In this document: positions 47,395 through 58,989 of the stretch, in pieces
How positions within the stretch are numbered: position 1 is the first letter of the stretch
Layout: each line of letters opens with the position of its first letter
Virus record (IMG/VR): IMGVR_UViG_3300033068_001989
Location: 128,001-192,000 of that record
DNA length: 64,000 bases
Direction: 5' to 3' (one strand)
Origin: a virus
Taxonomy: Duplodnaviria; Caudoviricetes
The notes under the pieces: model-generated
Seen by the model: the letters and a program-made list of their open reading frames with translations, nothing else
The model's database searches: none
What the model was told of the DNA's origin: nothing
Made by a program: the position numbers and the translations under genes

Positions 47395-47520
47395 TGGGGA
47401 AGGGTGGATTCGAACCACCTATTATAACATATGAAATTAATTTTATCCTTCGAAGTAACTCAAAATCTTACTACTTATCAAAGAGAATGTTGATACGAGT
47501 GTCTTTTTTGTTGCTTCCCC
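47395..47520 (-). ncRNA. Y-RNA-like tRNA chimera (permuted module inside tRNA-like ends)
   Basis: GGGGAAG/CTTCCCC-A acceptor, GGTGG-TTCGAAT-CCACC T arm; module ACATTCTCTT-tgat-AAGTAGTAA..GAGTTACTTCG. Confidence 0.7.
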
Positions 47521-47618
47521 AATTATTTAAAAATCCAACCGGACGTTTCTGTACGCCCCATTCTCCGATTACGATCGATTACGGTGGTCCCTGTTATATC
47601 AGGCCCAGTTGGATTTAG

Positions 47619-47690
47619 TTGCGGGAGGAGGATTCGAACCTCCGACCTTTGGGTTATGAGCCCAACGAGCTGCCTCTGCTCTATCCCGCT
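47619..47690 (-). tRNA. tRNA-fMet(CAT)
   Basis: GGG/CCC anticodon stem, 1-72 mismatch. Confidence 0.88.
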
Positions 47691-47838
47691 ATTTATATTT
47701 TCTGTGTGGCGCCCAAGGGAGGCTTATAAAGTTGTATAAGCCACTCCTCAAACAAAGACATAGTTCTGGTTACCCTTGATATGCTTAGCACGGACTTCTA
47801 CCGGCATTTCCTTAATTTTACAATTAAAGCGATATTCT

Positions 47839-47915
47839 TGGCGGTTCCAGGGGGATTCGAACCCCCGACCTCCGCCGTGACAGGGCGGCGTTGTAACCAA
47901 CTCTACTATGAAACC
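47839..47915 (-). tRNA. tRNA-Asp(GTC), CCA encoded
   Basis: Cloverleaf, CCGCC-CTGTCAC-GGCGG. Confidence 0.92.
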
Positions 47916-47918
47916 GTT

Positions 47919-48046
47919 TAAATAAGGGAATACTAAAGAAAGTATTTAATTTTCCGACTGGACTCGAACCAGCTACCCATTGTGAGTGAAACAATTGATC
48001 TAACCAAATGATCTACGAAGTAACTCTCTTAATTACCACTTATTTA
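47919..48046 (-). ncRNA. Y-RNA-like tRNA chimera (module on acceptor stem, loop TTCACTC)
   Basis: AAGTGGTAA..GAGTTACTTCG-[D, anticodon and T arms]-..GTATTCCCTT. Confidence 0.75.
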
Positions 48047-48130
48047 TACTTTAGCCGATATGCTTCATTGCAATTTAATTTCATGCTAATTTGAAACTTG
48101 CAGGGATTTCTCCACTCTCTCGGTTCTTTG

Positions 48131-48200
48131 TAGCGTAACGTGGACTCGAACCACCCCCCAAGCTTATGAGACTTAGATGCAACCTTTACACCTTAACGCA
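48131..48200 (-). tRNA. tRNA(CAT), Met or Ile2, divergent
   Basis: CTCATAA loop, GTGG-TTCGAGT-CCAC; imperfect acceptor stem. Confidence 0.6.
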
Positions 48201-48204
48201 ATAT

Positions 48205-48852
48205 TTATTGTTTTTTGATCCTTCCAAATTCCCATCCTTTTGACAAATGTTCATTTAGATCTATTTCTTTTATCTTCTTATCTGTCTGTCCATCATTGAT
48301 CCATCTTGTGCCAAATTGAGAGTTTTTTTCTCCTTTTTGGTTCAATGAATTCTTAAGACCCACTGATAATTTTGCCTCTTCCGTATGAGATCTTCCTGAG
48401 AAGGTGTCATACTTATATTTGCCATCTCTGTGATTTTTTTTAGCCAATTCAGAGAGATGCTTTCTTAAATTTTCTTTAAAATCAGAATCGTTGTTTACTT
48501 TTATCGAAAATGCTCTAGCACCAGATTCTGTAAATTTCTTAAGATGCTCTATACCACTAATACCTCCGCCTCCACCTGGCTGTAAATTCATACACATTGG
48601 ATCGTTTAAAAGATCCTCGTTAACTAATTCGATTTCTCTCTTTCTTAAAGATTCTCGATCTTCAAAATATTCAAGAATTTCCTTAGTGTGTGCTTCCTTA
48701 CCGTGCTTTCTTATCGATTCTCTTATTCTTCTACCACTTCCCATGTAACCATCATCTAAGTTATGCGTAGAGTGAATCCCTATGTAATATTTACCATTTT
48801 TTGTATTTGTTATTTTATACGAATAATGATATTTATATTTTTTTCTAGCCAT
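48205..48852 (-). mobile_element. Free-standing GIY-YIG homing endonuclease (Seg-like, NUMOD3)
   Basis: YSYKITN..YYIG.H..YMGSG, HTEE motif; inserted in the tRNA array. Confidence 0.85.
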
Positions 48853-48906
48853 CTCTATACCCTATTTTTATCTATATATCAAAAATAGGGTACGAAATCG
48901 CGGGCG

Positions 48907-48978
48907 TAGCCCGTAGGGGAATCGAACCCCTCTTACCAGGATGAAAACCTGGCGTCCTAACCGATAGACGAACGGGCC
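48907..48978 (-). tRNA. tRNA-Glu(TTC)
   Basis: Cloverleaf, CCAGG-TTTTCAT-CCTGG. Confidence 0.92.
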
Positions 48979-48983
48979 AAATT

Positions 48984-49129
48984 TAGGAAATAATGATGGA
49001 GTACCCGATATCGCTCCAATCTTTACTGCTTAATAATAGTTTTACAGTGCACCGGCAGAGGGTGTGTGAATCCTATAGAGCTGAAGGTGGCGTCGACACC
49101 TTGTCTTCAGCGGAAACCATTATTTCCTA
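48984..49129 (-). ncRNA. Unknown structured RNA
   Basis: 12-bp closing stem TAGGAAATAATG/CATTATTTCCTA with internal hairpins. Confidence 0.45.
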
Positions 49130-49777
49130 TTTTTTATTTCTTCCTAGTAACCATCCATCATTCAGATATTCGTTAAGGTCGCATCCCTTAATCTTTTTAT
49201 CCTCCTGATTTTTATTTACCCATCTTGTACCAAATTGTGAATTTTTATTACCAATTCTATTTATAGAATTTTTTTCACCTATTATTTTTTTGGTATCTTC
49301 TGTATGTTTTTTATCTTTGAAAGTTGGAGATCTCTCTGAATATGCTCCGTCCTTCCATGCTTTTTTAATCGTCTCGGAGGTCAACTTTTTAAAATGGAGT
49401 CTAAAATCCGCATCATTTTTTAACTTCTCTGAAAATCCCCTTCCCCCCGAGGAGCTGCATTTTTTCATATGCTTCTCGTTTATAAACCCTCCACCACCAC
49501 CGGGCTGTAGATTCATGCACATTGGATCATTTAATAAATCCTCATTAACTAATTCAATTTCTCTTTTTCGTAGGGATTCTCTGTCTTCGAAATATTCCAA
49601 AATTTCCTTGGTGTGTGAATCCTTTCCATGTCTTCTTATTGAATTTGTAATCCTTTTACCACTTCCAAAATAATCATCATCAAGATTATCTGTAGAATGC
49701 ATACCTATATAATATTTACCATCCTTTTTGTTGGTTATCTTATAGATATAGTGAAACCTCTTTTCTTTTCTTGCCAT
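49127..49777 (-). mobile_element. Free-standing GIY-YIG homing endonuclease (Seg-like, NUMOD3)
   Basis: YIYKITN..YYIGMH..YFGSG, HTEDTK; paralog of 48205..48852. Confidence 0.85.
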
Positions 49778-49831
49778 TTCTATACTTTAATTTAGATTAT
49801 GTATCTAAACTAAAGTACGAAATCGCGGCTG

Positions 49832-49905
49832 TGGTCCCTGTAGGGCTTGAACCTACGACCCCCTGATTATGAGTCAGGTGCTCTAACCAACTGAGCTAAG
49901 AGACC
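49832..49905 (-). tRNA. tRNA(CAT), probably Ile2 (reads ATA after lysidine modification)
   Basis: Cloverleaf, CCTGA-CTCATAA-TCAGG; Ile2 identity inferred from GGTCTCT acceptor and presence of separate fMet and Met genes. Confidence 0.75.
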
Positions 49906-49914
49906 GTTAATAAA

Positions 49915-50135
49915 AAAAGAAATATCCAAACCAATTTCACATCCCTTTACTCTTTGGTTTACCAGTCTTGCGGACTGTGCTGGTCATCTTCCGTTCTTTT
50001 CTCAAAATCTTTAGGTGTTCTTACTATCTCTATCAGATCACTGGGATTTTTGTTGAATTGAGTTTATTATGATCGGTCTATTGCGTCAGGGTATGGCAAC
50101 CAATAGACTTGTACCTCTCCAAAAATATTTCTTTT
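49915..50135 (-). ncRNA. Unknown ~220-nt structured RNA
   Basis: Closing stem AAAAGAAATAT/ATATTTCTTTT; internal hairpins; lies just after a promoter and boxA-like element. Confidence 0.45.
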
Positions 50136-50180
50136 AATTCTTTATGTTAATGAACGTTGTTTCTTTGTTTATTATTGTAT

Positions 50181-50214
50181 TGCAAAAGTATGATATTCTT
50201 TCGGGATAAAAAAA
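50181..50214 (-). promoter_or_regulatory. Early promoter inside array B
   Basis: TTTTTTTATCCCGAAAGAATATCATACTTTTGCA. Confidence 0.7.
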
Positions 50215-50267
50215 TTATTTTTGATATTTTTTTGAATTTTTTCAAAAATAATTTTTTATCACCTTTG

Positions 50268-50341
50268 CCGAGATAACGGGAATCGAACCCGTTTCGCACG
50301 CCGTGACAGGGCGGCATCCTTCGCCAGTGGACCTTACCTCG
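50268..50341 (-). tRNA. tRNA-Asp(GTC)
   Basis: CTGTCAC loop, ACGGG-TTCGATT-CCCGT. Confidence 0.8.
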
Positions 50342-50350
50342 AATATTTTG

Positions 50351-50440
50351 CGGAGGGTGAGGGGCTCGAACCCTCGCGACCTATCACTAGATCCTACCTG
50401 TTTAGCAAACAGGCCTCTTCACCAACTTGAGTAACCCTCC
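50351..50440 (-). tRNA. tRNA-Ser(GCT)
   Basis: Cloverleaf with long variable arm, G73. Confidence 0.92.
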
Positions 50441-50494
50441 GAATACAAGCCCAGAAAATTGCGCATGCTAGCAGAGGCGTTCTGGGAATTGTTG

Positions 50495-50581
50495 TACCCC
50501 GAGCCGGAGTCGAACCGGCACGCTCCTTTCGGAACACCAGATTTTAAGTCTGGGGCGTCTGACCATTTTCGCCATCGGGGC
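50495..50581 (-). tRNA. tRNA-Leu(TAA)
   Basis: CCAGA-CTTAAAA-TCTGG, long variable arm. Confidence 0.92.
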
Positions 50582-50588
50582 ATTAATT

Positions 50589-50680
50589 TGGTACAGATGG
50601 CGGGAATCGAACCCGCGTTTGATGCTATCTCAACAACCGCTACGAGTATAGAAGATATAAGCTTCCATCGGTACATCTGC
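50589..50680 (-). ncRNA. tRNA-like RNA without a D stem, CCA encoded
   Basis: GCAGATG/CATCTGT-ACCA, GCGGG-TTCGATT-CCCGC; irregular long hairpin in place of D and anticodon arms. Confidence 0.6.
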
Positions 50681-50688
50681 TAATTTTG

Positions 50689-50763
50689 GGTGACTGGTGG
50701 GGTTTGAACCCACGACCTCCTGAACCACAATCAGGCGTTCTAACCAGCTGAACTACAGCCACC
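50689..50763 (-). tRNA. tRNA-His(GTG)
   Basis: Cloverleaf with G-1 and C73. Confidence 0.92.
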
Positions 50764-50818
50764 ATGTTACGATCTATAAGGCCAGATCGTCAGCCAGTGC
50801 CTTCTCCCTAGGGAGATG

Positions 50819-51097
50819 CTATTTATTATCTCTATTTTTACCTAGATGATATCCGTCACAGAATATACATTTATAAACACTGAAATATTTACCATGTTTC
50901 CTTTGCATTGAATCTGCTGCCTTTCTTGCTGATTCCTTTGTTGGAAATCCCTGTTTTTCCTTTCCGTCCATTCTATAATGGCTTCTTTTATCAAATAATC
51001 CTAATGCATTACCTGTTATAAAGAAATTACGAAATGCTCTTTTTAAGGGAAGCTGATCCTTCAAACCAAGAATCAAATTCTTTAATTTAATTGGCAT
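50819..51097 (-). CDS. Hypothetical basic protein (CxxC..H)
   Basis: YKCIFCDGYHLG. Confidence 0.65.
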   Translation of the reverse strand: MPIKLKNLILGLKDQLPLKRAFRNFFITGNALGLFDKRSHYRMDGKEKQGFPTKESARKAADSMQRKHGKYFSVYKCIFCDGYHLGKNRDNK

Positions 51098-51533
51098 TTT
51101 CTTTTGTTTTATTAAATTCGTCCGCGGTTACTTTTTTTATCGGTGTAAATAAAGCGAACCCATCGTCGTCTTCGAAGTGATTGCATTTATCGATGAAATA
51201 GTTTCCCATCTTAAATCTCCAATATTCAAAAACGTTCATAGTTTCATTCCATCTTCCGATTTTACCTCTTCTATGATCACCTAGATAGAAAGCACCATCT
51301 TCGAGTTCATTCTTAGGTATTGCACCAGCTTTAATGAGTCTTGGTATATAGTATTCTTTATACTCCTTCTCGTTAACTTTTGGTATTTCTGGTACGTCTT
51401 GCGGAATTTTAAAAGTCTTAAGATTATCCCATCTTTTTCTTCTAAGCTCCTCAAAATTCTTTTTATCAATTTCCCTTTTTTCCTCAAGGAACTTTTTGAT
51501 CTGTTCGATTTTTTGTTTTTTGTCTGGTTCCAT
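51087..51533 (-). CDS. Hypothetical protein
   Basis: ORF within the tRNA array. Confidence 0.65.
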   Translation of the reverse strand: MEPDKKQKIEQIKKFLEEKREIDKKNFEELRRKRWDNLKTFKIPQDVPEIPKVNEKEYKEYYIPRLIKAGAIPKNELEDGAFYLGDHRRGKIGRWNETMNVFEYWRFKMGNYFIDKCNHFEDDDGFALFTPIKKVTADEFNKTKENAN

Positions 51534-51551
51534 GACTATGTTTTTAATTAG

Positions 51552-51634
51552 AGGTACCTGTCAGATTCGAACTGACGTGAGATTTCTCTAGCGGTTTTGC
51601 AGACCGCTCCTTTCAACCACTCAGGCAAGGTACC
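51552..51634 (-). tRNA. tRNA-Cys(GCA) with long variable arm
   Basis: GCGGT-CTGCAAA-ACCGC, U73, variable arm TAGAGAAATCTCAC. Confidence 0.85.
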
Positions 51635-51642
51635 GTGTTTAG

Positions 51643-51715
51643 AGCCTAAGACAGGGGTCGAACCTGCGACCTGCTGATTACAAATCAGCTGCTCTACCAA
51701 CTGAGCTACTTAGGC
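51643..51715 (-). tRNA. tRNA-Thr(TGT)
   Basis: Cloverleaf. Confidence 0.93.
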
Positions 51716-51723
51716 ATTTTTTG

Positions 51724-51809
51724 AGGAGACCAAGGGGATCGAACCCTATGCAGTTGCCCGCACCCGATGCTTTCCAGGCATGGACTATCACCGTTTAGTA
51801 TTGATCTCC
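51724..51809 (-). tRNA. tRNA-Ser(GGA), divergent
   Basis: ATGC-CTGGAAA-GCAT, long variable arm. Confidence 0.75.
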
Positions 51810-51923
51810 ATTGAGGGTTGACATATAGAATCTTTCCTATTTTCTGCGGTATAGGTACCATCATGGATTCCGTTGACCGATTCGTCTTTATAACCCCATA
51901 CGGAACAAGCAGGGTAACCTAAG

Positions 51924-52011
51924 CGGAGGGAGTGGGATTCGAACCCACGGGAGTAATTAGCTCACACAAGATTTCAAGTCTAGGCGCTTTTGACCACTTG
52001 CGCACCCCTCC
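51924..52011 (-). tRNA. tRNA-Ser(TGA)
   Basis: CTTGAAA loop, long variable arm, G73. Confidence 0.9.
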
Positions 52012-52042
52012 AATTTACTTTTACAATATTTCAATGAACAAT

Positions 52043-52075
52043 AAAAAAGGTCTCCTTTTTAGAGGAGACCTTTTT
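52043..52075 (-). terminator. Attenuator terminator upstream of tRNA array B
   Basis: GGTCTCCT-ctaaaa-AGGAGACC followed by T tract. Confidence 0.85.
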
Positions 52076-52097
52076 GATATTATTATATGTCTTAATA

Positions 52098-52190
52098 TCA
52101 ATACTCTCTCCTCATTACAATAGACGATTCACAAGTTGAACTCGTGTGATCTAAATGTAATGTATCTAATATGTACTGTATTTGTGACAT
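52098..52190 (-). CDS. Leader peptide B, 30 aa (MSQIQYILDTLHLDHTSSTCESSIVMRREY)
   Basis: Manual translation; A-rich initiation context; contains antiterminator GAGGAGA; codons match array B. Confidence 0.75.
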   Translation of the reverse strand: MSQIQYILDTLHLDHTSSTCESSIVMRREY

Positions 52191-52201
52191 GATTTTTATT
52201 T

Positions 52202-52272
52202 TTATAGATTTATATATCTAATTGATTTTAATATTTTATGCAAATTTAATGAAATGTTTCGAATAAAAAAAA
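52202..52272 (-). promoter_or_regulatory. Tandem early (TAAATTTG) and late-type (GATATATA) promoter block, copy B
   Basis: 52202-52248 is identical to 63034-63080. Confidence 0.8.
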
Positions 52273-52297
52273 TTATTTTTTATTTTTTTTTCAATAT

Positions 52298-52573
52298 TTA
52301 TTGAATTTCGTTTAATTGCTTAGGTATAAATTCACCAGTTTCTGTGATGTCTGCATATCTAGAAACAATATCACTCAATCCTCTTAGTAATTCCTCGAGG
52401 TTTTTTTCTTTTTCTGTTGGTCCATTTGTTGAACTGAAATTAGGTACAGCAATTTTTTGTTTAACTAATCTATCAAGATCAGATTTCAATTCATCAGCTA
52501 CGGATTTTTCATCACCGTAGAATTTTTCGTTAATTTCCGATTTATCAGAATCGTAATGTTTAAGATATCTCAT
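52298..52573 (-). CDS. Hypothetical, probable virion protein
   Basis: YLKHY..INE N-terminal motif. Confidence 0.55.
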   Translation of the reverse strand: MRYLKHYDSDKSEINEKFYGDEKSVADELKSDLDRLVKQKIAVPNFSSTNGPTEKEKNLEELLRGLSDIVSRYADITETGEFIPKQLNEIQ

Positions 52574-52578
52574 CCTTT

Positions 52579-54069
52579 TTATATAAATTTGAAGTCCTCG
52601 AGTGATCTAAGATACTCTAGATTGTAATTTTCCTTTAATTCCTTAATTTTCTTAGAATCTTTATCATCCACAATCGCAGGAACTGAATTTATTGTTTTTA
52701 ATCCAACCGATACTGCTTTCGGTAATGGTCCCATTAGTCCAGATGATGATAATTTATCTATAGTTTTTGAAGTTTTAGGATATTCCGTTGCTAAATCTCC
52801 TAAAAAATCTATCATTGGTTGAGCTATTGGTTTTATATAAGTTCCTACTAATTTCTTAATAACATCCAAAGCAGGTCCCAAGAAAGACTTAAATGCATTA
52901 GCTATTATTTTAGCAGCTGGTGTAACCGCAGATTTTATGAAATTTGATATTGCTTTTGAGAATTTTTCAGGAAGTGATATAAGGAATTGAAACAATTCTG
53001 ATATTTTTCCGCCAGCATAAATTATACCATCAAATACTTTACCTAAAAGGCCTTCACCGACCATCAGGAATATTGTCGATATTGTTGTCGCTGCAAGAGC
53101 AGATCCACCTGATCCCATTATCGCTCCGATGTTCTTTGCTGAATTTGCTCCAATTTTACCAACTAGTTTTGATGCTCCGTGTGCAAGAAAATGCTCTGTA
53201 CTATGAGCAAATTGTCCAGCAAATGTACCTGCCCATTTTTCGGAAGCTTTAAGAGATGCCGTGCTTGCTGCCGCTATACCAGGTATTGCTGCTTTTGGTG
53301 CCATTATAACATCATTTAGACCAAGTAAGATGGAACAAGAACCAGCTATTACTAGCGGTGCGCCGACAGCTAAACTTTTTTTGGTCTTTTCTAACTTGTT
53401 CATTTCAATTTCGGATAGATGTGACCACGCTTTTTTCATTTTATATACACCTATTCCTATTTCAATTGCACCTGCAATTCCAAGTAGAACCGGACCTAAT
53501 ATCTGACCAGCTGCTGGTATTAAGGGTGTAACTGCTGCAGTCATCTGTAGTACTATTGCTACTGTTGTCCAAAAATTTGAGCTAGTTGTTATTTCTTTTA
53601 TAGCAGATACTATTCTTTTTGTAAATTTCCAAACTCTTTTTGCACCATCGGATATACTATTCCATATATTTGCACTCTTAGATTTAACTAAATCCACTGC
53701 TGATTTAGCATTAGATTTAACTTTATCCCAAGCTGCTGACATATCGTCAAGAATTCCTTCATTTATAGCATGCATCGTATAATTATCGATTATAAATGCT
53801 GATCCATTTTTAAATAAAACCGTTCCACTATCACTCTCAAGCATCAATATCTTCTCATCATCGTTGAACCAGTCTTTCTTATTCTCGTAAAGCATTCCTA
53901 ATTCGTACATAGCATACGATTTTTCCAATAGCATCTCCTCGGACTCAGATTCAAATACCTTAGATTCAAACATATTAGAAAATTCTGGCAATGTTAATTT
54001 CACCATTATGTCTTCACTTAACTTTCCGAAATTGCTCGAGGAAAGAAATCCATCATATTTATTAATCAT
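52579..54069 (-). CDS. Hypothetical virion protein with hydrophobic Gly/Ala helices
   Basis: Several FE/INE motifs in the N-terminus; membrane-like segments. Confidence 0.6.
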   Translation of the reverse strand: MINKYDGFLSSSNFGKLSEDIMVKLTLPEFSNMFESKVFESESEEMLLEKSYAMYELGMLYENKKDWFNDDEKILMLESDSGTVLFKNGSAFIIDNYTMHAINEGILDDMSAAWDKVKSNAKSAVDLVKSKSANIWNSISDGAKRVWKFTKRIVSAIKEITTSSNFWTTVAIVLQMTAAVTPLIPAAGQILGPVLLGIAGAIEIGIGVYKMKKAWSHLSEIEMNKLEKTKKSLAVGAPLVIAGSCSILLGLNDVIMAPKAAIPGIAAASTASLKASEKWAGTFAGQFAHSTEHFLAHGASKLVGKIGANSAKNIGAIMGSGGSALAATTISTIFLMVGEGLLGKVFDGIIYAGGKISELFQFLISLPEKFSKAISNFIKSAVTPAAKIIANAFKSFLGPALDVIKKLVGTYIKPIAQPMIDFLGDLATEYPKTSKTIDKLSSSGLMGPLPKAVSVGLKTINSVPAIVDDKDSKKIKELKENYNLEYLRSLEDFKFI

Positions 54070-54112
54070 TTTATAGATTTTTTTCTTTTATATATCCAAA
54101 TTACAAACAACA

Positions 54113-54140
54113 AAAAAGCCATTCTATATGAATGGCTTTT
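54113..54140 (-). terminator. Intrinsic terminator after Ro60
   Basis: AAAGCCATTC/GAATGGCTTT followed by T tract. Confidence 0.75.
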
Positions 54141-54160
54141 ATAATTTATGCAAAATATTA

Positions 54161-55741
54161 TTAGATAACAATAGCTTCGATTTCTCTTAAAATCGCTTTT
54201 GGATCGATCTCAGCTTTTTTGATCATCTCGTAGATATCAGCAGAGTAACCAAAAAGTTGAACTAATTTGTTACCTGGTTTGAACATGGTTGTACCATATC
54301 CTTGAATATCAACAGTGTAGATGAAAGGTTCGCCATGTGCAGATTTGTAGGATTGGAAAGAACTGTTTGTAACGATTCTATCACCACCTTGTAAATCTGA
54401 TATGATGAAGATACGATCATATTTACCGCTTTTTTGTAAAGTTGAGAAGATTGAGCCGAAGTCAGTACCATGACCAACTCTACCTTGCAAACTTAAACAT
54501 GTATTTTTGATCGTATTGATGCTATCGCCAGGATTGTATCTGATACCTTCTGTTGTTGTCGCAAATTGGTATAAATCTGCACCGATACCTTTTGCTAACG
54601 TTGCTCCAATAAGAGCAGCTTTATCAATACAATGTTTGTTTATAGCTTTACCATTCATGGTAACTCCATGTCCCATTCCGTGCATAGATCCAGATGTATC
54701 AATAACAACCGCTGTTCTGCCATGTGAGAATAATTCGAGCAAGTTTGGTATTGCTAATTCGTAAGCTCTATTCAAAGCAGTAACGAATGGTCTAGACGCA
54801 GAAGCACTAGTTTCTTGTAAAAGAATCTCCAAAGCAATATCTATTTGGTGAGGAAAGACCAAAGATTTTCTGATCAATTTCTCATCGATTAAAAGCTCAC
54901 ACGCACCACTAACTAATTCAGAATTTGAACTTGTGTTGATGATGTTTCTTAAATTACGAAGCAATGCCAAGTAACCAATTTTTCTAGTTTTAATCAATTC
55001 AGCATAGTTGCTTTCTTTAGCTTGTGTCAATTCAACCTCTGCTTGGGCTTTAGTGATTTCACCGGATTTAACTTTTGCAGCAACTTCCTGTCCTGATTTT
55101 GTGTTTTTGTCCTCGACAGTGTTGAATTGTTTTAACTTACCAGTCATAAGTTCTTTGAAAACCCCCTCCATTTGTGGTGTTGTTGGTTTTGGACGAACCA
55201 AGTTAACAACATCAACAAGTGAAACTGCTTTCCCTTTACCTTGATATTTAGCTAATTCGTATGCATCTGCTGATTCTAAAGCTGCTTTAAAGCCTTTCTT
55301 CATTGAGTTAGGTAATGGTTTACCAGGATTGAAGTGTTGGTAAGCTGCGATAATCTCCAATACGTCATCTAAACGGTATATAATACCACCAGTTTTAGCA
55401 TTCTTATCTCTTTTTGAGAAGAATCTTCTACCTATAGCTGATCCGGATAAATGTTTAACTAATGATACAGATCCGAAATGTGTTACTGATCTTTGACCAA
55501 CAACAGTTCTCGCGTATACAAGAGCTTTAGCAACGAATTCGATATCTTTCTTGGACAATTCGTCGATAAGTTGAACAAATCTGTTCTCTCTATCTGATAA
55601 TTTTTCATAGTATGAATTATCCAATCCTGTGGTAAGAATAGCAATTAATTCTAATTTTGGATCATACTTCACACCGGTACCACCTTGATGGTTTGTAACT
55701 GTCTCAACAGTTCTTTTTACTTTTTGATTGTAACGTGACAT
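54161..55741 (-). CDS. Ro60/TROVE RNA-binding protein
   Basis: YELAKY, ALLRNLRN, FPHQI TROVE motifs; C-terminal vWA MIDAS DTSGSM..GTD..ISD. Confidence 0.9.
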   Translation of the reverse strand: MSRYNQKVKRTVETVTNHQGGTGVKYDPKLELIAILTTGLDNSYYEKLSDRENRFVQLIDELSKKDIEFVAKALVYARTVVGQRSVTHFGSVSLVKHLSGSAIGRRFFSKRDKNAKTGGIIYRLDDVLEIIAAYQHFNPGKPLPNSMKKGFKAALESADAYELAKYQGKGKAVSLVDVVNLVRPKPTTPQMEGVFKELMTGKLKQFNTVEDKNTKSGQEVAAKVKSGEITKAQAEVELTQAKESNYAELIKTRKIGYLALLRNLRNIINTSSNSELVSGACELLIDEKLIRKSLVFPHQIDIALEILLQETSASASRPFVTALNRAYELAIPNLLELFSHGRTAVVIDTSGSMHGMGHGVTMNGKAINKHCIDKAALIGATLAKGIGADLYQFATTTEGIRYNPGDSINTIKNTCLSLQGRVGHGTDFGSIFSTLQKSGKYDRIFIISDLQGGDRIVTNSSFQSYKSAHGEPFIYTVDIQGYGTTMFKPGNKLVQLFGYSADIYEMIKKAEIDPKAILREIEAIVI

Positions 55742-55770
55742 GATTATAATTGTTTATTCGTTTATATTAT

Positions 55771-55967
55771 AAAATTGAGTTATCGGAAAGATAAAGCATA
55801 TAGACTAGGTCAAATGCAAGATCAACGTCAAAGACCTTCTTCTATTGCAAAGACAATGACAAAAACTAAGTCTCTTTCGCTAGCCAATTATCTGCCTAGT
55901 GGTAAAGATTTCTCTTTCTCTATGGCTTTCAGTAACTTGTCTAGCTATTGAGTTCTATCTCAGTTTT
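55771..55967 (-). ncRNA. Candidate structured RNA with hexamer-periodic tract
   Basis: Closing stem AAAACTGAG/CTCAATTTT; GTTTTT-GTCATT-GTCTTT..GTCTTT-GACGTT-GATCTT-GCATTT. Confidence 0.4.
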
Positions 55968-56157
55968 ATTTATTTTTATAGAAGAAGCGGAGTGATGAGA
56001 GTTCCCGAAGGATCCTCTCTGATTGCTGTATATGATTAATAGTCATTTATCTTATAAGATAATGGCCAGGAGCCATTAATTAAAGGACTTTATCTCTCCG
56101 AATCAAAGCATCAGGGGAATCGGCTTTTGCTTACCCCTTCAGCACCTCAATTTATTT

Positions 56158-57081
56158 TTATTTTTCTAGTTGTTTCAAAAATTCATCAACAACTGGTTGG
56201 AATCTAGGATCAATCTGAATCTTAAGATTTACAGCTTCACCGATTCTATTTTGACGCTCTGTTTCAAAATCAAGACTTGCTTTCTTGTAGTTTGCTAACC
56301 AAGCTTCTCTCTTTTTTGTGTATTCGTTCATCGCTAGTGAATTCTTTTCATTAGCTTCTGCTTGAGCATCAGCATTGATTTTAGAAATCCTTGCATTTTC
56401 CTTAGTTACAGCATTCTTAACCTTCGATTTGAAATAATTAACTCTTTGCTCGTAACTTCTATGAAGAGCTGCCAACTCTTCGTGTGTTTTTAACAACTCC
56501 TCAGGTTTGTGATGCACATTAACTTTAATAGGAGTTTTCTTTCCTGTTTCGATTTCCATAAACTCAAGAAGCTGAATTTTAGGTAATTCTGATCTCAGAC
56601 GATCTAATGTTCCACCCTTATGAATAAATTGTCCTATATGTGAAGCATAAGCCTCCGCCTCGATGAATTCGTTATATTCATCAATTGTTAGTTGATTCCA
56701 GCCCCAATCCTCTGCAACTTGTACCAGAACTTCAGGTTGAATATTAGGTTCTCTTTCAGGTGAAGGATTTTGATCCTCATAATCAAAATATTCTCTCTTG
56801 ATTCCGTTTATCAATTCGTCTTTGGCTTTTATATTCTCCATTAGAAAAGCCTGTGTTGCATGCAACCTTGCTTTACTTTTAAGAAGTTCAACAACATCTT
56901 TAGGTAAAGGTTTTGCAGCGGTTAAATTGTGATCCTCTTTGGATATCCTTATCGTTTTTGATGCGTTATTAATATCTGCTAAAGCTGCAGTAATATCCTT
57001 TGATCTTTGGTTACAAAGATTCGATATAGATTGAGCTTGAGACATTGATAATCCTTTTGATGCTAATGAATTTCTTTTCAT
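56158..57081 (-). CDS. Conserved-looking coiled-coil protein upstream of Ro60
   Basis: 307-aa helical ORF with A.HIGQFIH motif. Confidence 0.7.
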   Translation of the reverse strand: MKRNSLASKGLSMSQAQSISNLCNQRSKDITAALADINNASKTIRISKEDHNLTAAKPLPKDVVELLKSKARLHATQAFLMENIKAKDELINGIKREYFDYEDQNPSPEREPNIQPEVLVQVAEDWGWNQLTIDEYNEFIEAEAYASHIGQFIHKGGTLDRLRSELPKIQLLEFMEIETGKKTPIKVNVHHKPEELLKTHEELAALHRSYEQRVNYFKSKVKNAVTKENARISKINADAQAEANEKNSLAMNEYTKKREAWLANYKKASLDFETERQNRIGEAVNLKIQIDPRFQPVVDEFLKQLEK

Positions 57082-57125
57082 GATTTCTAATTTTTGTTTT
57101 TATATTTTACTTTAAATTTCTACAA

Positions 57126-57165
57126 TAAAAAAGGGATTAAGTCGCTTGGCGTCCTAATCCCTTTA
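57126..57165 (-). terminator. Terminator ending array A and the Y-like cluster
   Basis: AAAGGGATTA/TAATCCCTTT followed by T tract. Confidence 0.7.
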
Positions 57166-57173
57166 TAAAACTA

Positions 57174-57314
57174 ACAGAGAATGATGTAAGAAGTGTGAAC
57201 AATTTAATGTCTGATTTTCATTCAGATGACTTAACCACTTGTCTAAATTTCCAGTTTAGCGGAAACTATCGGAGTCGAACCGATGTGCGATGTAACTTCT
57301 ATACTTACTACTGT
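57174..57314 (-). ncRNA. Y-RNA-like circularly permuted tRNA (break in variable loop, anticodon GAA)
   Basis: Order is T arm, closed acceptor (AGTTTCC/GGAAATT), D arm, anticodon arm TCTGA-ATGAAAA-TCAGA, all inside the shared module. Confidence 0.78.
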
Positions 57315-57322
57315 CGTATGTT

Positions 57323-57482
57323 TTATAAGGGAATGATGTAAATAGCGTTTTTTCTAACGTGCTCTACCAACTGAGCTATTCCCCCCAAATTTTTAATTTG
57401 TTTAGTGGGGGAAGATGGATTCGAACCACCGACACCGTGCTTTCAATGCATACGAAGTAACTATTTTACTGACCACTTATAA
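57323..57482 (-). ncRNA. YrlA-like RNA (T-acceptor-D order, module on anticodon stem)
   Basis: GGTGG-TTCGAAT-CCATC, TTCCCCC/GGGGGAA closed by a linker, GCTC-AGTTGGTA-GAGC; module AAGTGGTCA..GTTACTTCG/CATTCCCTT. Confidence 0.8.
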
Positions 57483-57490
57483 TATGTTTT

Positions 57491-57625
57491 TTGTAAGGGA
57501 ATGTTCGGGTGAGTTTCAATGGATGTTTTTGCTGGAGTTGAACCAGCTACCTAAAGTTTAAGAGACTCTCGCTCTACCAAGTGAGCTAAAAAACGAAGTA
57601 ACTCATATTCCGTTACCACTTACAA
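57491..57625 (-). ncRNA. Y-RNA-like tRNA chimera (module on acceptor stem, anticodon CTT)
   Basis: D, anticodon (AGAGT-CTCTTAA-ACTTT) and T arms enclosed by the module. Confidence 0.78.
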
Positions 57626-57711
57626 TAATACTTTTTCAATGAACGTTTTGTGATTTTTATATGGAGGGAAATCCTCTTTGTTTCATAAAAATCAATATTT
57701 TTTTAAAATTT

Positions 57712-57877
57712 AACGATCTTAGAGATATTGGGAAGGGAATGTTTAGAAAGGGATGCTAATAGTTTTTGCGGGAGTTGAACCCGCGACCTTAAATACCAAA
57801 AATTTACGCCCTACCAACTGGGCTAAAAAACGAAGTAACCTTTCAATTTACCACTAACCAATATTTCTAAGAACGTT
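57712..57877 (-). ncRNA. Y-RNA-like tRNA chimera (module on acceptor stem, anticodon TTG)
   Basis: D, anticodon (TAAAT-TTTTGGT-ATTTA) and T arms enclosed by the module plus a long basal stem. Confidence 0.78.
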
Positions 57878-58443: not shown

Positions 58444-58905
58444 TTAATTTGCAATTTTTTCAATAATAATTTCCTTAACCTTAACTGGACTCGCCATACC
58501 TGGAAACTTTTTATTAAAAGCACCGATAACTTTACCTGTTAAAACCTGTGCATTTAATCCAAGACCATCCATTTCTGAAAGTAGTTCCATAACAGCGGAT
58601 GTTATTTCTGAATCCTCCATTTGTTTAGGAAGATAAGATTCAATCGGTTTCAACTCAGCTGTTTCTTGTTCTACAAGATCCATTCTTCCGGCCTTTGTGA
58701 ATTCCTCTACTGATTGTTTTCTTTGTTTGATTGTGCTTATAACAATCTTTAAAACATCAGCATCACTAAGCTCTGTTCCAGCTGGACCAGCTTTCTCAGC
58801 TTCTAGTATTTTGGACTTCAGACCACTTAAAGCACTTTTTGCTACTGTGTCTTTTGATTTGAATGCTGTAATATAATCAGCATTGATTTTCTCCTTTAGT
58901 GTCAT
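58444..58905 (-). CDS. GatB/YqeY domain protein (start at MTLKEK)
   Basis: LKEKINAD..AFKSKD..KQRKQS.E.F.KAGR.DL..E..E....YLPKQM. Confidence 0.85.
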   Translation of the reverse strand: MTLKEKINADYITAFKSKDTVAKSALSGLKSKILEAEKAGPAGTELSDADVLKIVISTIKQRKQSVEEFTKAGRMDLVEQETAELKPIESYLPKQMEDSEITSAVMELLSEMDGLGLNAQVLTGKVIGAFNKKFPGMASPVKVKEIIIEKIAN

Positions 58906-58920
58906 GTTTTCAATTTTTAG

Positions 58921-58989
58921 TGGAATATTGGGACTCGAACCCTGCCTCCCACTGTTTAGTGGTTGCACATCCGCTTGTGCTTTTATCCC
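58921..58989 (-). pseudogene. Degenerate tRNA-like element
   Basis: GGGATA/TATTCC acceptor, GCAC/GTGC D stem, TTCGAGT loop; anticodon loop not 7 nt. Confidence 0.5.

What the first reader, a model, noticed from the sequence alone, without database searches (positions are those of the whole stretch)
47395..57877. Six Y-RNA-like RNAs: one conserved module joined to tRNA at four different positions
SEEN: the module has 5' strand AGTRGTMA-N-RGTTACWTCG and 3' strand ending in ATTCYCT. It occurs at 47395, 47919, 57174, 57323, 57491 and 57712. Its inner stem covaries between copies (GAGT/ACTC, AAGAGAGT/ACTTTCTT, AGAAGT/ACTTCT, AAATAG/CTATTT, TGAGTT/AACTCA, GAAAGG/CCTTTC). Attachment differs: (i) on the acceptor stem of an in-order tRNA body in 3 copies (loops CAC, CTT, TTG); (ii) on the anticodon stem in T-acceptor-D order; (iii) at the variable loop of a complete permuted tRNA; (iv) itself permuted and placed inside ordinary tRNA ends. 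KNOWN: Ro60 orthologs bind adjacent YrlA RNAs with topology (ii). INFERENCE: the module is a Ro60-binding handle that presents different faces of tRNA, possibly as decoys for anticodon nucleases or as adaptors for tRNA-processing enzymes. Topologies i, iii and iv are not YrlA forms I know, and the canonical GNCGAAN(0-1)G YrlA motif is not obvious on this strand.
Basis: partly seen in the sequence, partly recalled or inferred. Interest (0 to 1): 0.88.

Follow-up and report, generated by a model that had tools for sequence, protein, structure and literature searches.

The report
Phage Ro60 partner RNAs displaying tRNA mimics
A giant phage encodes six small RNAs that share one conserved, co-varying "handle" found almost only beside Ro60 genes; each holds a tRNA look-alike joined at a different point, and some anticodon loops change unusually fast, a lead on why Y RNAs mimic tRNA.

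Summary
All six copies lie on the minus strand, on either side of a full-length Ro60/TROVE gene. GTTACWTCG occurs 6 times against 0.5 expected.

- **Independent recovery:** a covariance model built only from short copies in other viral contigs finds exactly these six sites and nothing else in the window or the 208-kb record.
- **Structure:** both helices co-vary. 91% of cells are paired against 76% when shuffled, and 10 of 13 pairs change on both sides.
- **Link to Ro60:** 11 of 12 contigs found by the RNA motif alone encode Ro60, against 0 of 13 control contigs. Every copy scored by the model is co-oriented with Ro60, most within about 2 kb.
- **Topologies:** the four claimed are real and recur across the family, alongside a plain form with no tRNA part.
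- **New here:** among phages with 95-98% identical Ro60, the permuted tRNA mimic differs almost only in its anticodon loop (GAA, GUA or CAU).
- **Family placement:** this is not Rfam YrlA (31.8 bits against a threshold of 69; no GNCGAA motif) and it matches no Rfam family.

Most likely these are a new branch of Y RNAs whose handle docks phage Ro60. Binding and function are untested. The scan noted the same family earlier on a near-identical 430-kb phage.

The parts
54161..55741 (-). Ro60/TROVE gene (526 aa), the presumed protein partner
   Evidence: Pfam TROVE 40.1 bits against a cut-off of 23. PHROG 850 'RNA-binding protein' matched over its full length, E 2.4e-32. Near full-length match to the solved Thermus phage phiLo Ro60 (9KOP/9L5Y), E 9e-20.
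57734..57855 (-). Copy A6: the handle closes over an in-order tRNA-like body (anticodon UUG). The anticodon loop is at 57795-57801.
   Evidence: R1 43.9 bits, E 2.3e-7. ARAGORN tRNA-Gln and Rfam tRNA 62.4 bits. The acceptor stem has only 6 pairs, five of them U-A, plus a C1/U72 mismatch. The loop reads UUA in two sister phages.
57496..57620 (-). Copy A5: the handle closes over an in-order tRNA-like body (anticodon CUU).
   Evidence: R1 35.6 bits. ARAGORN tRNA-Lys and Rfam tRNA 58.1 bits. In sister phages this slot holds a UUG paralogue with a fully compensated inner stem, TGAGTT/AACTCA becoming ACGAAA/TTTCGT.
57328..57477 (-). Copy A4: handle, then V hairpin, T arm, closed 7-bp acceptor stem and D arm (YrlA-like order).
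   Evidence: R1 37.2 bits. Rfam YrlA gives a partial match of 31.8 bits against a threshold of 69. The T arm and closed acceptor stem co-vary among relatives.
57176..57312 (-). Copy A3: a complete circularly permuted tRNA mimic (T arm, closed acceptor stem, D arm, anticodon arm), with the handle leaving at the variable-loop position. The anticodon loop AUGAAAA is at 57215-57221.
   Evidence: R1 30.8 bits. ARAGORN finds tRNA-Phe(GAA) on the doubled insert. RNAalifold recovers the T arm, closed acceptor stem and anticodon arm with compensatory changes. The loop is hypervariable in sister phages: 5 of 7 loop columns vary against 4 of 133 others, Fisher p 6e-6.
47925..48040 (-). Copy A2: the handle closes over an in-order tRNA-like body (anticodon CAC) whose acceptor stem is cut down to about 4 pairs.
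   Evidence: R1 44.4 bits, E 1.8e-7. ARAGORN tRNA-Val and Rfam tRNA 36.5 bits. Sequence read.
47395..47520 (-). Copy A1: inside-out form. The 7-bp acceptor stem GGGGAAG/CTTCCCC, A73 and a T arm frame the handle, whose outer end is closed by the loop UUGAUA (3' strand 47482-47500, 5' strand 47451-47475).
   Evidence: Sequence read. Eight such copies occur in the family, all with co-varying 7-bp acceptor stems. R1 matches only its 5' strand properly, at 21.3 bits, as expected for a permuted module.
57127..57166 (-). Terminator-like hairpin and U run closing the A5-A4-A3 unit.
   Evidence: Read directly: a 9-10 bp stem AAGGGATTA.../...TAATCCCTT followed by TTTTTT. It is conserved in sister phages. 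The consensus scan missed it because its loop is longer than 8 nt.
57639..57647 (-). Conserved upstream box AACGTTCAT, followed by TTGAAAAA, about 20 nt before A5. A second copy lies at 57869-57877 before A6. It may be a phage promoter or processing signal.
   Evidence: 5 matches in the window against 1.0 expected. Similar boxes precede the first copy of the arrays in L102-L106.

Best explanation
These are six paralogous genes of a previously uncatalogued branch of Y RNAs, the small RNAs that partner the ring protein Ro60. Each RNA has a constant handle made of three parts. First, a terminal helix forms between AGURGUMA and AUUCYCU, with bulged U residues. Second, after an internal loop, comes a freely co-varying inner stem. 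Third comes the near-invariant stretch (G)UUACWUCG facing an A-rich strand. I infer that the phage Ro60 encoded between the copies docks on this handle, which would stabilise the RNA. The variable end of the handle carries a tRNA-like domain joined at different points, so different copies leave different tRNA surfaces free. Depending on the copy these are the anticodon arm plus elbow (A2, A5, A6), the anticodon arm with a sealed acceptor end (A3), the elbow only (A4), or a free 7-bp acceptor end plus T arm (A1). I further infer that the complexes act as tRNA decoys or tethers for proteins that read tRNA, for example host anticodon nucleases, and that rapid anticodon-loop switching reflects an arms race. 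What is shown: the handle, its covariation, the topologies, the association with Ro60, and the loop hypervariability. What is inferred: Ro60 binding (about 0.8) and the decoy or tether role (about 0.35-0.4).
For: The handle is real and specific. The motif is enriched. Model R1, trained on foreign short forms, finds only the six copies. It gives 100 matches in Ro60-linked loci and none in 13 control loci. Covariation: 91.3% of cells paired against 76.1% shuffled, 10 of 13 pairs with changes on both sides, score 0.437 against 0.159, and slid controls at or below 0.152. Position 1 pairs as A-U, G-C, C-G and U-A, and R4/Y5' switch together (Fisher p 1.4e-8). Link to Ro60: 17 of 20 loci fetched by Ro60 similarity (27-98% identity) carry the 5' motif on the Ro60 strand. 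Of contigs found by the DNA motif alone, 11 of 12 encode Ro60 against 0 of 13 controls. In 10 of those 11 a copy lies in the locus cut 1.5 kb either side of Ro60. Other window neighbours are lost beyond the closest relatives, while the handle persists. The ORF is a full-length Ro60. Topologies are supported. Functional hint: among genomes with 95-98% identical Ro60, the A3 anticodon loop reads GAA, GUA or CAU while the rest of the RNA is nearly invariant. A6 switches between UUG and UUA. The closed acceptor end of A3 rules out decoding as the reason. Published precedent: YrlA-type Y RNAs mimic tRNA and sit beside Ro60 on the same strand (PMC4201824). A phage Ro60 binds adjacent Y-like RNAs (PMC12135203). 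A competitive-inhibitor role against an anticodon nuclease has been proposed for YrlA (PMC7790460).
Against: There are no transcript, binding or processing data. The canonical Ro60-contact motifs (GGUCCGA, GNCGAAN0-1G) are absent, and CGAA follows the motif in only 1 of the 6 copies. The handle model finds nothing beside the experimentally studied phiLo Ro60, nor in Vibrio phage Va1 or CcrColossus, so binding cannot be transferred from a tested case. Single-sequence folding energies are unremarkable (z from -1.7 to +0.3), so the structure rests on covariation alone. The alignment used was fitted to the model, which favours its structure. Some in-order relatives score as excellent tRNAs (72.8 bits) and could simply be tRNA precursors. 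The loop hypervariability rests on five near-identical genomes.
Confidence: 0.7

Rival explanations
1. The in-order copies (A2, A5, A6), and perhaps A1, are precursors of working tRNAs. On this view the handle is a leader-trailer helix that RNase P and a 3' nuclease remove, and Ro60 acts as a chaperone or quality-control gate for these particular tRNAs rather than as a stable partner.
For: Rfam tRNA scores lie above the gathering threshold (36.5-62.4 bits here; up to 72.8 bits in L106). CAC and CUU are anticodons not otherwise present among the window's tRNAs. UUG changing to UUA is a classic tRNA suppressor change. M. smegmatis YrlA is cut by RNase P and receives CCA (PMC4201824). A1-type copies keep a 7-bp acceptor stem and A73.
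Against: The same handle sits on permuted bodies with sealed acceptor ends, and on 22 copies with no tRNA part at all. A5 and A6 have 6-pair, nearly all-U-A acceptor stems with a 1-72 mismatch, and A2 has about 4 pairs. The ordinary tRNAs of the same array shown have G+C-rich acceptor stems. Anticodons change between syntenic copies far faster than in ordinary tRNA genes.
Confidence: 0.17
2. The handle is recognised by some other factor, or is a processing or stability element of phage tRNA arrays, and it lies near Ro60 only because both sit in tRNA clusters.
For: All copies lie inside tRNA arrays. No binding data exist. Two window copies are 6.1-6.8 kb from Ro60. GOLLD RNA also sits in some of these arrays.
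Against: Thirteen control contigs, chosen because they carried the 5' motif with no pairing 3' partner, have neither Ro60 nor a model hit. Every copy scored by the model is on the Ro60 strand, and in most loci the copies abut the gene. None of six other neighbouring proteins tracks with the handle.
Confidence: 0.08
3. The copies are decaying tRNA pseudogenes or a repeat or mobile element with no RNA-level function.
For: They are multi-copy, lie among homing-endonuclease genes, and have odd A+U-rich stems.
Against: Compensatory changes occur in both handle helices and in the T, acceptor and anticodon stems. The family is conserved down to 27-31% Ro60 identity. Canonical 7-nt loops are preserved even while the anticodons change.
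Confidence: 0.03

Closest known systems
YrlA (Y RNA-like A; Rfam RF02553; Chen et al. 2014, PMC4201824; structure in Wang et al. 2018, 10.1101/312249)
   Same: A small RNA encoded beside Ro60 on the same strand. Its 5' and 3' ends pair, and its effector domain is a tRNA mimic with T arm, closed acceptor stem and D arm. Copy A4 has this order, including the V hairpin.
   Different: The handle has a different sequence and no GNCGAAN0-1G motif. The best Rfam score is 31.8 bits against a threshold of 69. YrlA has no anticodon loop and no free acceptor end, whereas four copies here carry full anticodon arms and one carries a free 7-bp acceptor end. There are six paralogues per genome rather than one or two.
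Thermus phage phiLo Ro60 with Yrl1/Yrl2 (PMC12135203; PDB 9KOP, 9L5Y)
   Same: A phage-encoded Ro60 that is the closest solved relative of this ORF, with Y-like RNAs encoded just upstream. Binding was shown by gel shift and cryo-EM.
   Different: The phiLo RNAs were defined by a CGAA bulge about 10 nt from the 5' end and have no described tRNA part. Model R1 finds nothing in the phiLo locus.
Metazoan Y RNAs and Deinococcus Yrn1
   Same: A bulged helix made from both RNA ends, with both strands conserved, as reported for Yrn1 and animal Y RNAs. The 5' strand is the more conserved one, and Ro60 mainly contacts the 5' strand (PMC4201824).
   Different: The consensus differs (AGURGUMA/AUUCYCU against GGUCCGA), and there is a second conserved block, UUACWUCG, at a fixed 8-nt spacing.
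Circularly permuted tRNA genes of red algae and archaea
   Same: A3 has the order of a permuted tRNA: 3' half, linker, then 5' half.
   Different: Those genes are processed into working tRNAs through a circular intermediate. Here the ends are held in a conserved handle shared with RNAs that have no tRNA part, and no bacterial splicing endonuclease is known (10.1101/312249).
tmRNA tRNA-like domain
   Same: A1 keeps only the acceptor stem and T arm, with another module in place of the D and anticodon arms.
   Different: There is no mRNA part, no G3:U70 pair, and the inserted module is the Ro60-type handle.

Membership tests
YrlA (Rfam RF02553) | Score at or above the Rfam gathering threshold (69 bits) | tested here: not met
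   The best match is 31.8 bits, covering model positions 23-87 only, at 57355-57438. No YrlA hit reached the gathering threshold in eight related loci.
YrlA (Rfam RF02553) | GNCGAAN0-1G motif near the 5' end (Chen et al. 2014) | tested here: not met
   The 5' strand reads AGURGUMA-N8-GUUACWUCG. CGAA follows only in A1, and the leading G is absent.
YrlA (Rfam RF02553) | tRNA-like domain in the order T arm, closed acceptor stem, D arm, without an anticodon loop | tested here: inconclusive
   Met by A4. A3 adds a full anticodon arm. A2, A5 and A6 are in order, and A1 is inside-out.
YrlA (Rfam RF02553) | Encoded within about 4 kb of Ro60 on the same strand | tested here: met
   A3-A6 lie 1.4-2.1 kb upstream of the Ro60 start, and A1 and A2 lie 6.1-6.8 kb downstream, all on the minus strand. 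The same holds in related loci.
Y RNA (functional class: stable partner of Ro60) | Bound by Ro60 in vivo or in vitro | not testable with these tools
   Only co-occurrence could be tested: 11 of 12 against 0 of 13.
Y RNA (functional class: stable partner of Ro60) | 5' and 3' ends form a conserved bulged helix | tested here: met
   In the terminal helix 97.7% of cells are paired, and 4 of 6 pairs show changes on both sides.
tRNA (Rfam RF00005), for A2, A5 and A6 | Cloverleaf scoring above the gathering threshold (29 bits) | tested here: met
   36.5, 58.1 and 62.4 bits.
tRNA (Rfam RF00005), for A2, A5 and A6 | Free ends on a 7-bp acceptor stem with a paired 1-72 | tested here: not met
   A5 and A6 have 6 pairs plus a C1/A72 or C1/U72 mismatch. 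A2 has about 4 pairs. In all three, both ends continue into the handle.
Ro60 / TROVE protein (for ORF 54161-55741) | TROVE domain above the Pfam cut-off, and near full-length similarity to a solved Ro60 | tested here: met
   Pfam 40.1 bits against 23. phiLo Ro60 residues 23-489 of 500 aligned to ORF residues 17-517, E 9e-20.

The most novel reading that the evidence does not exclude
Huge phages keep a Ro60-scaffolded panel of tRNA decoys. Their anticodon loops would be swappable specificity cassettes, evolving in an arms race with host tRNA-cleaving defences or other anticodon-reading proteins. This would give the long-unexplained tRNA mimicry of bacterial Y RNAs a concrete function.
Probability: 0.3. 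Interest if true: 0.9.

Novelty: new variant of a known kind. Interest (0 to 1): 0.77.

Why it matters
Why bacterial and phage Y RNAs imitate tRNA has been open since 2014. This family offers a natural experiment. One constant handle displays tRNA in several orientations, including forms that cannot decode, and strain-to-strain change is concentrated in the anticodon loop. That points to anticodon-reading proteins as the partners, which can be tested directly. The family also extends Ro60/Y-RNA particles to many uncultured large phages and adds an RNA family missing from Rfam.

Tried and rejected
- **Rfam:** at the gathering threshold and at E<=5, only tRNA hits and one sub-threshold partial YrlA match appeared.
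- **Single-sequence folding:** energies are no better than shuffles, so thermodynamics alone neither supports nor refutes the structure.
- **GenBank phages, DNA search:** megablast of the locus found nothing.
- **Bacterial genomes:** a search for close Ro60 relatives found only two contigs from metagenome-assembled genomes (97% and 64% Ro60 identity); L132 (64%) carries several full copies of the handle and L131 (97%) matches the window's array, so I read them as phage DNA, and there is no host clue.
- **Cultured phages:** R1 finds no handle beside Ro60 in Thermus phage phiLo, Vibrio phage Va1 or Caulobacter phage CcrColossus. It does find one in the uncultured 635-kb phage LR745206.
- **Alternative 5' hairpin:** the two conserved 5' blocks can pair with each other (GGUAA with UUACU), and RNAalifold chose this. 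Sequence variants break that pairing without compensation, whereas they are compensated in the 5'-3' helix, so I reject it as the main fold.
- **A4 'anticodon arm':** the CGUU/AACG hairpin is not conserved, so the ARAGORN call of AAA is spurious.
- **My own detection scripts:** my first partner-finding script was too permissive. The stricter one gave 71 of 117 hits, against 0 of 117 with shuffled flanks and 13 of 117 with reversed flanks.
- **RNA-repair genes:** no RtcB or CCA-adding enzyme was found in the 73%-complete record, only one RNA-ligase-domain ORF far away.

Full report
**Setting.** The window is bases 128001-192000 of a 207,751-bp IMG/VR virus record estimated to be 73% complete. 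Sister contigs reach 430-434 kb, so this is a huge phage. Between 47 and 63 kb, every tRNA gene called there and most of the longer ORFs are on the minus strand. That stretch holds 31 ARAGORN tRNA calls and an ORF of 526 aa at 54161-55741. This ORF passes the Pfam TROVE cut-off and matches PHROG 850 over its full length. It also aligns almost end to end with the solved Ro60 of Thermus phage phiLo (E 9e-20).

**Observation.**
- On the minus strand, GTTACWTCG occurs six times against 0.52 expected, and no shuffle reaches six.
- Each occurrence lies 8 nt (10 nt in one copy) after AGTRGTMA.
- Five copies have ATTCYCT 83-118 nt further on. In the sixth copy it lies upstream instead.
- The 208-kb record holds no further copies. 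A pattern search found only two chance GTTACATCG sites on the other strand, and the model search returned only sites among the six.

**The handle is a conserved RNA structure.**
- *Source of relatives.* I collected relatives in two independent ways. A DNA-pattern scan of IMG/VR gave 90 stretches, about the number chance would give by my estimate for so loose a pattern. A search by the Ro60 protein gave 20 loci at 27-98% identity.
- *Partner strands.* A strict script found a pairing 3' strand for 71 of 117 5' motifs. With shuffled flanks it found 0 of 117, and with reversed flanks 13 of 117.
- *Independent model.* I built a covariance model (R1) from 15 short, tRNA-free copies taken only from other contigs. 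It recovered the six window copies and nothing else at E<=10. Scores were 44.4, 43.9, 37.2, 35.6 and 30.8 bits, and 21.3 bits for the inside-out copy.
- *Controls.* Over 60 sources it gave 100 matches, none of them in 13 control loci.
- *Pair counts.* On the resulting alignment 91.3% of cells pair, against 76.1% in shuffles. Ten of 13 pairs change on both sides, and the covariation score is 0.437 against 0.159. Slid controls reach at most 0.152. This alignment was fitted to the model, which favours its structure.
- *Terminal helix.* Position 1 pairs as A-U, G-C, C-G and U-A. R4 and Y5' switch together, with Fisher p 1.4e-8 in a test that did not require pairing. The rare G5-to-U change is matched by C4'-to-A.
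- *Unpaired parts.* The stretch UACWUCG stays unpaired and nearly invariant, facing an A-rich strand (51% A).
- *Alternative fold.* The two 5' blocks can also pair with each other, but variants break that pairing without compensation, so I treat it as at most an alternative conformer.

**Association with Ro60.**
- In 17 of the 20 loci fetched by Ro60 similarity, the 5' motif lies on the Ro60 strand, usually in arrays ending within 100-500 nt of the start codon.
- Among contigs found by the DNA motif alone, 11 of 12 with full modules encode a Ro60 relative. The exception is a 27-kb fragment. All five complete records among them do.
- None of 13 contigs that had only a chance 5' motif encodes one.
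- In 10 of those 11 contigs, a copy lies in the locus cut 1.5 kb either side of Ro60, on the same strand.
- Six other proteins neighbouring the window's Ro60 are found only in the closest relatives, while the handle persists.
- This is the same genomic signature that defined YrlA (PMC4201824).

**Topologies.** Across 77 non-redundant copies:
- 22 are short with no tRNA part.
- 18 hold an in-order tRNA body.
- About 22 have the T arm first.
- 8 are inside-out.
- 7 are other forms.

In the window:
- A2, A5 and A6 are in-order bodies, but with weak acceptor stems of 4-6 pairs, mostly U-A, and a 1-72 mismatch.
- A3 is a complete permuted tRNA. Doubling its insert lets ARAGORN call tRNA-Phe(GAA). 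RNAalifold recovers the T arm, a closed acceptor stem and a 5-bp anticodon arm, all with compensatory changes.
- A4 has a V hairpin, T arm, closed 7-bp acceptor stem and D arm, which is the YrlA order.
- A1 frames a hexaloop-closed handle with a 7-bp acceptor stem, A73 and a T arm. All eight such copies have co-varying 7-bp acceptor stems.
- The closed handle of A1 shows that free RNA ends are not needed for whatever reads the handle.

**Fast-changing anticodon loops.** I aligned the A6-A3 region with five phage genomes whose Ro60 is 95-98% identical.
- A3 is nearly invariant except for its 7-nt loop, which reads AUGAAAA, CAGUAAA or CUCAUAA. Five of 7 loop columns vary against 4 of 133 others (Fisher p 6e-6).
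- The A6 loop reads UUG or UUA.
- The A5 slot holds either a CUU body or a UUG paralogue whose inner stem is fully compensated.
- A1, A2 and A4 hardly change.
- More distant syntenic copies also differ in anticodon while keeping canonical loops.
- Because A3 cannot be aminoacylated, decoding cannot explain this pattern. Recognition of the loop by some protein can.

**Comparison with known systems.**
- The family fails the Rfam YrlA threshold and lacks the GNCGAA motif.
- Published YrlA has no anticodon loop and no free acceptor end (10.1101/312249).
- The phiLo Yrl RNAs, which are the only phage Y-like RNAs with binding data (PMC12135203), do not match R1.
- Full-text searches found no description of this handle.
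- Earlier notes of this scan describe the same family on a near-identical 430-kb phage, including the fast anticodon change. They also describe analogous arrays with a different handle in other phages. I reached my results before reading those notes.

**Verdict.** The structure, the topologies and the link to Ro60 are solid. Binding to Ro60 is a strong inference at about 0.8. The decoy or tether function is a reasonable but untested hypothesis at about 0.35-0.4. The main rival is that the in-order copies are processed into working tRNAs.

Noticed in passing
L104:3519-3933, L105:8489-8905, L106:7913-8328: Full-length GOLLD RNAs (277-288 bits against a threshold of 150) lie inside the Y-RNA/tRNA arrays just upstream of Ro60 in three related phages (about 60% Ro60 identity). 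The window itself has none.
   Followed up: no
L100 and L049, equivalent to window 57795-57801: In two sister phages the A6-type body carries anticodon UUA, which ARAGORN calls 'tRNA-Stop'. This is an ochre-suppressor-like change from UUG, accompanied by G37 to A.
   Followed up: partly
window 57639-57647, 57869-57877, 50150-50158 (minus strand): A conserved box AACGTTCWT, followed by TTGAAAA/TATT, precedes A5 and A6 and also occurs at a third minus-strand site, 50150-50158. Similar boxes precede arrays in other phages. It may be a phage-specific promoter or processing signal. It does not have sigma-70 spacing.
   Followed up: partly
window 57848-57855 with 57831-57838, and the same blocks in every copy: The two conserved 5' blocks are mutually complementary (GGUAA with UUACU), so a local hairpin could compete with the 5'-3' helix. 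There is no covariation for it, and a conformational switch cannot be excluded.
   Followed up: partly
window 48131-48200 (minus strand): A sub-threshold tRNA-like match (26.4 bits against 29) lies just upstream of A2. It may be a decayed tRNA or another mimic.
   Followed up: no
window 48205-48852 and 49127-49777 (minus strand): Two GIY-YIG (SegE-like) homing-endonuclease ORFs sit between the tRNA genes and the A1/A2 pair.
   Followed up: no
window 58444-58968 (minus strand): A YqeY-like protein (Pfam PF09424, E 5.6e-31) is encoded inside the tRNA array just upstream of the Y-RNA cluster. It is conserved only in the closest relatives.
   Followed up: no
L105:20889-21296 and L013:6477-6635: A tmRNA and a permuted tmRNA are encoded in the tRNA arrays of two related phages that carry the handle.
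   Followed up: no
window 47700-47838 (minus strand): A stretch of about 140 nt between tRNA-Asp and tRNA-Met has no ORF and no Rfam match. It was not examined.
   Followed up: no
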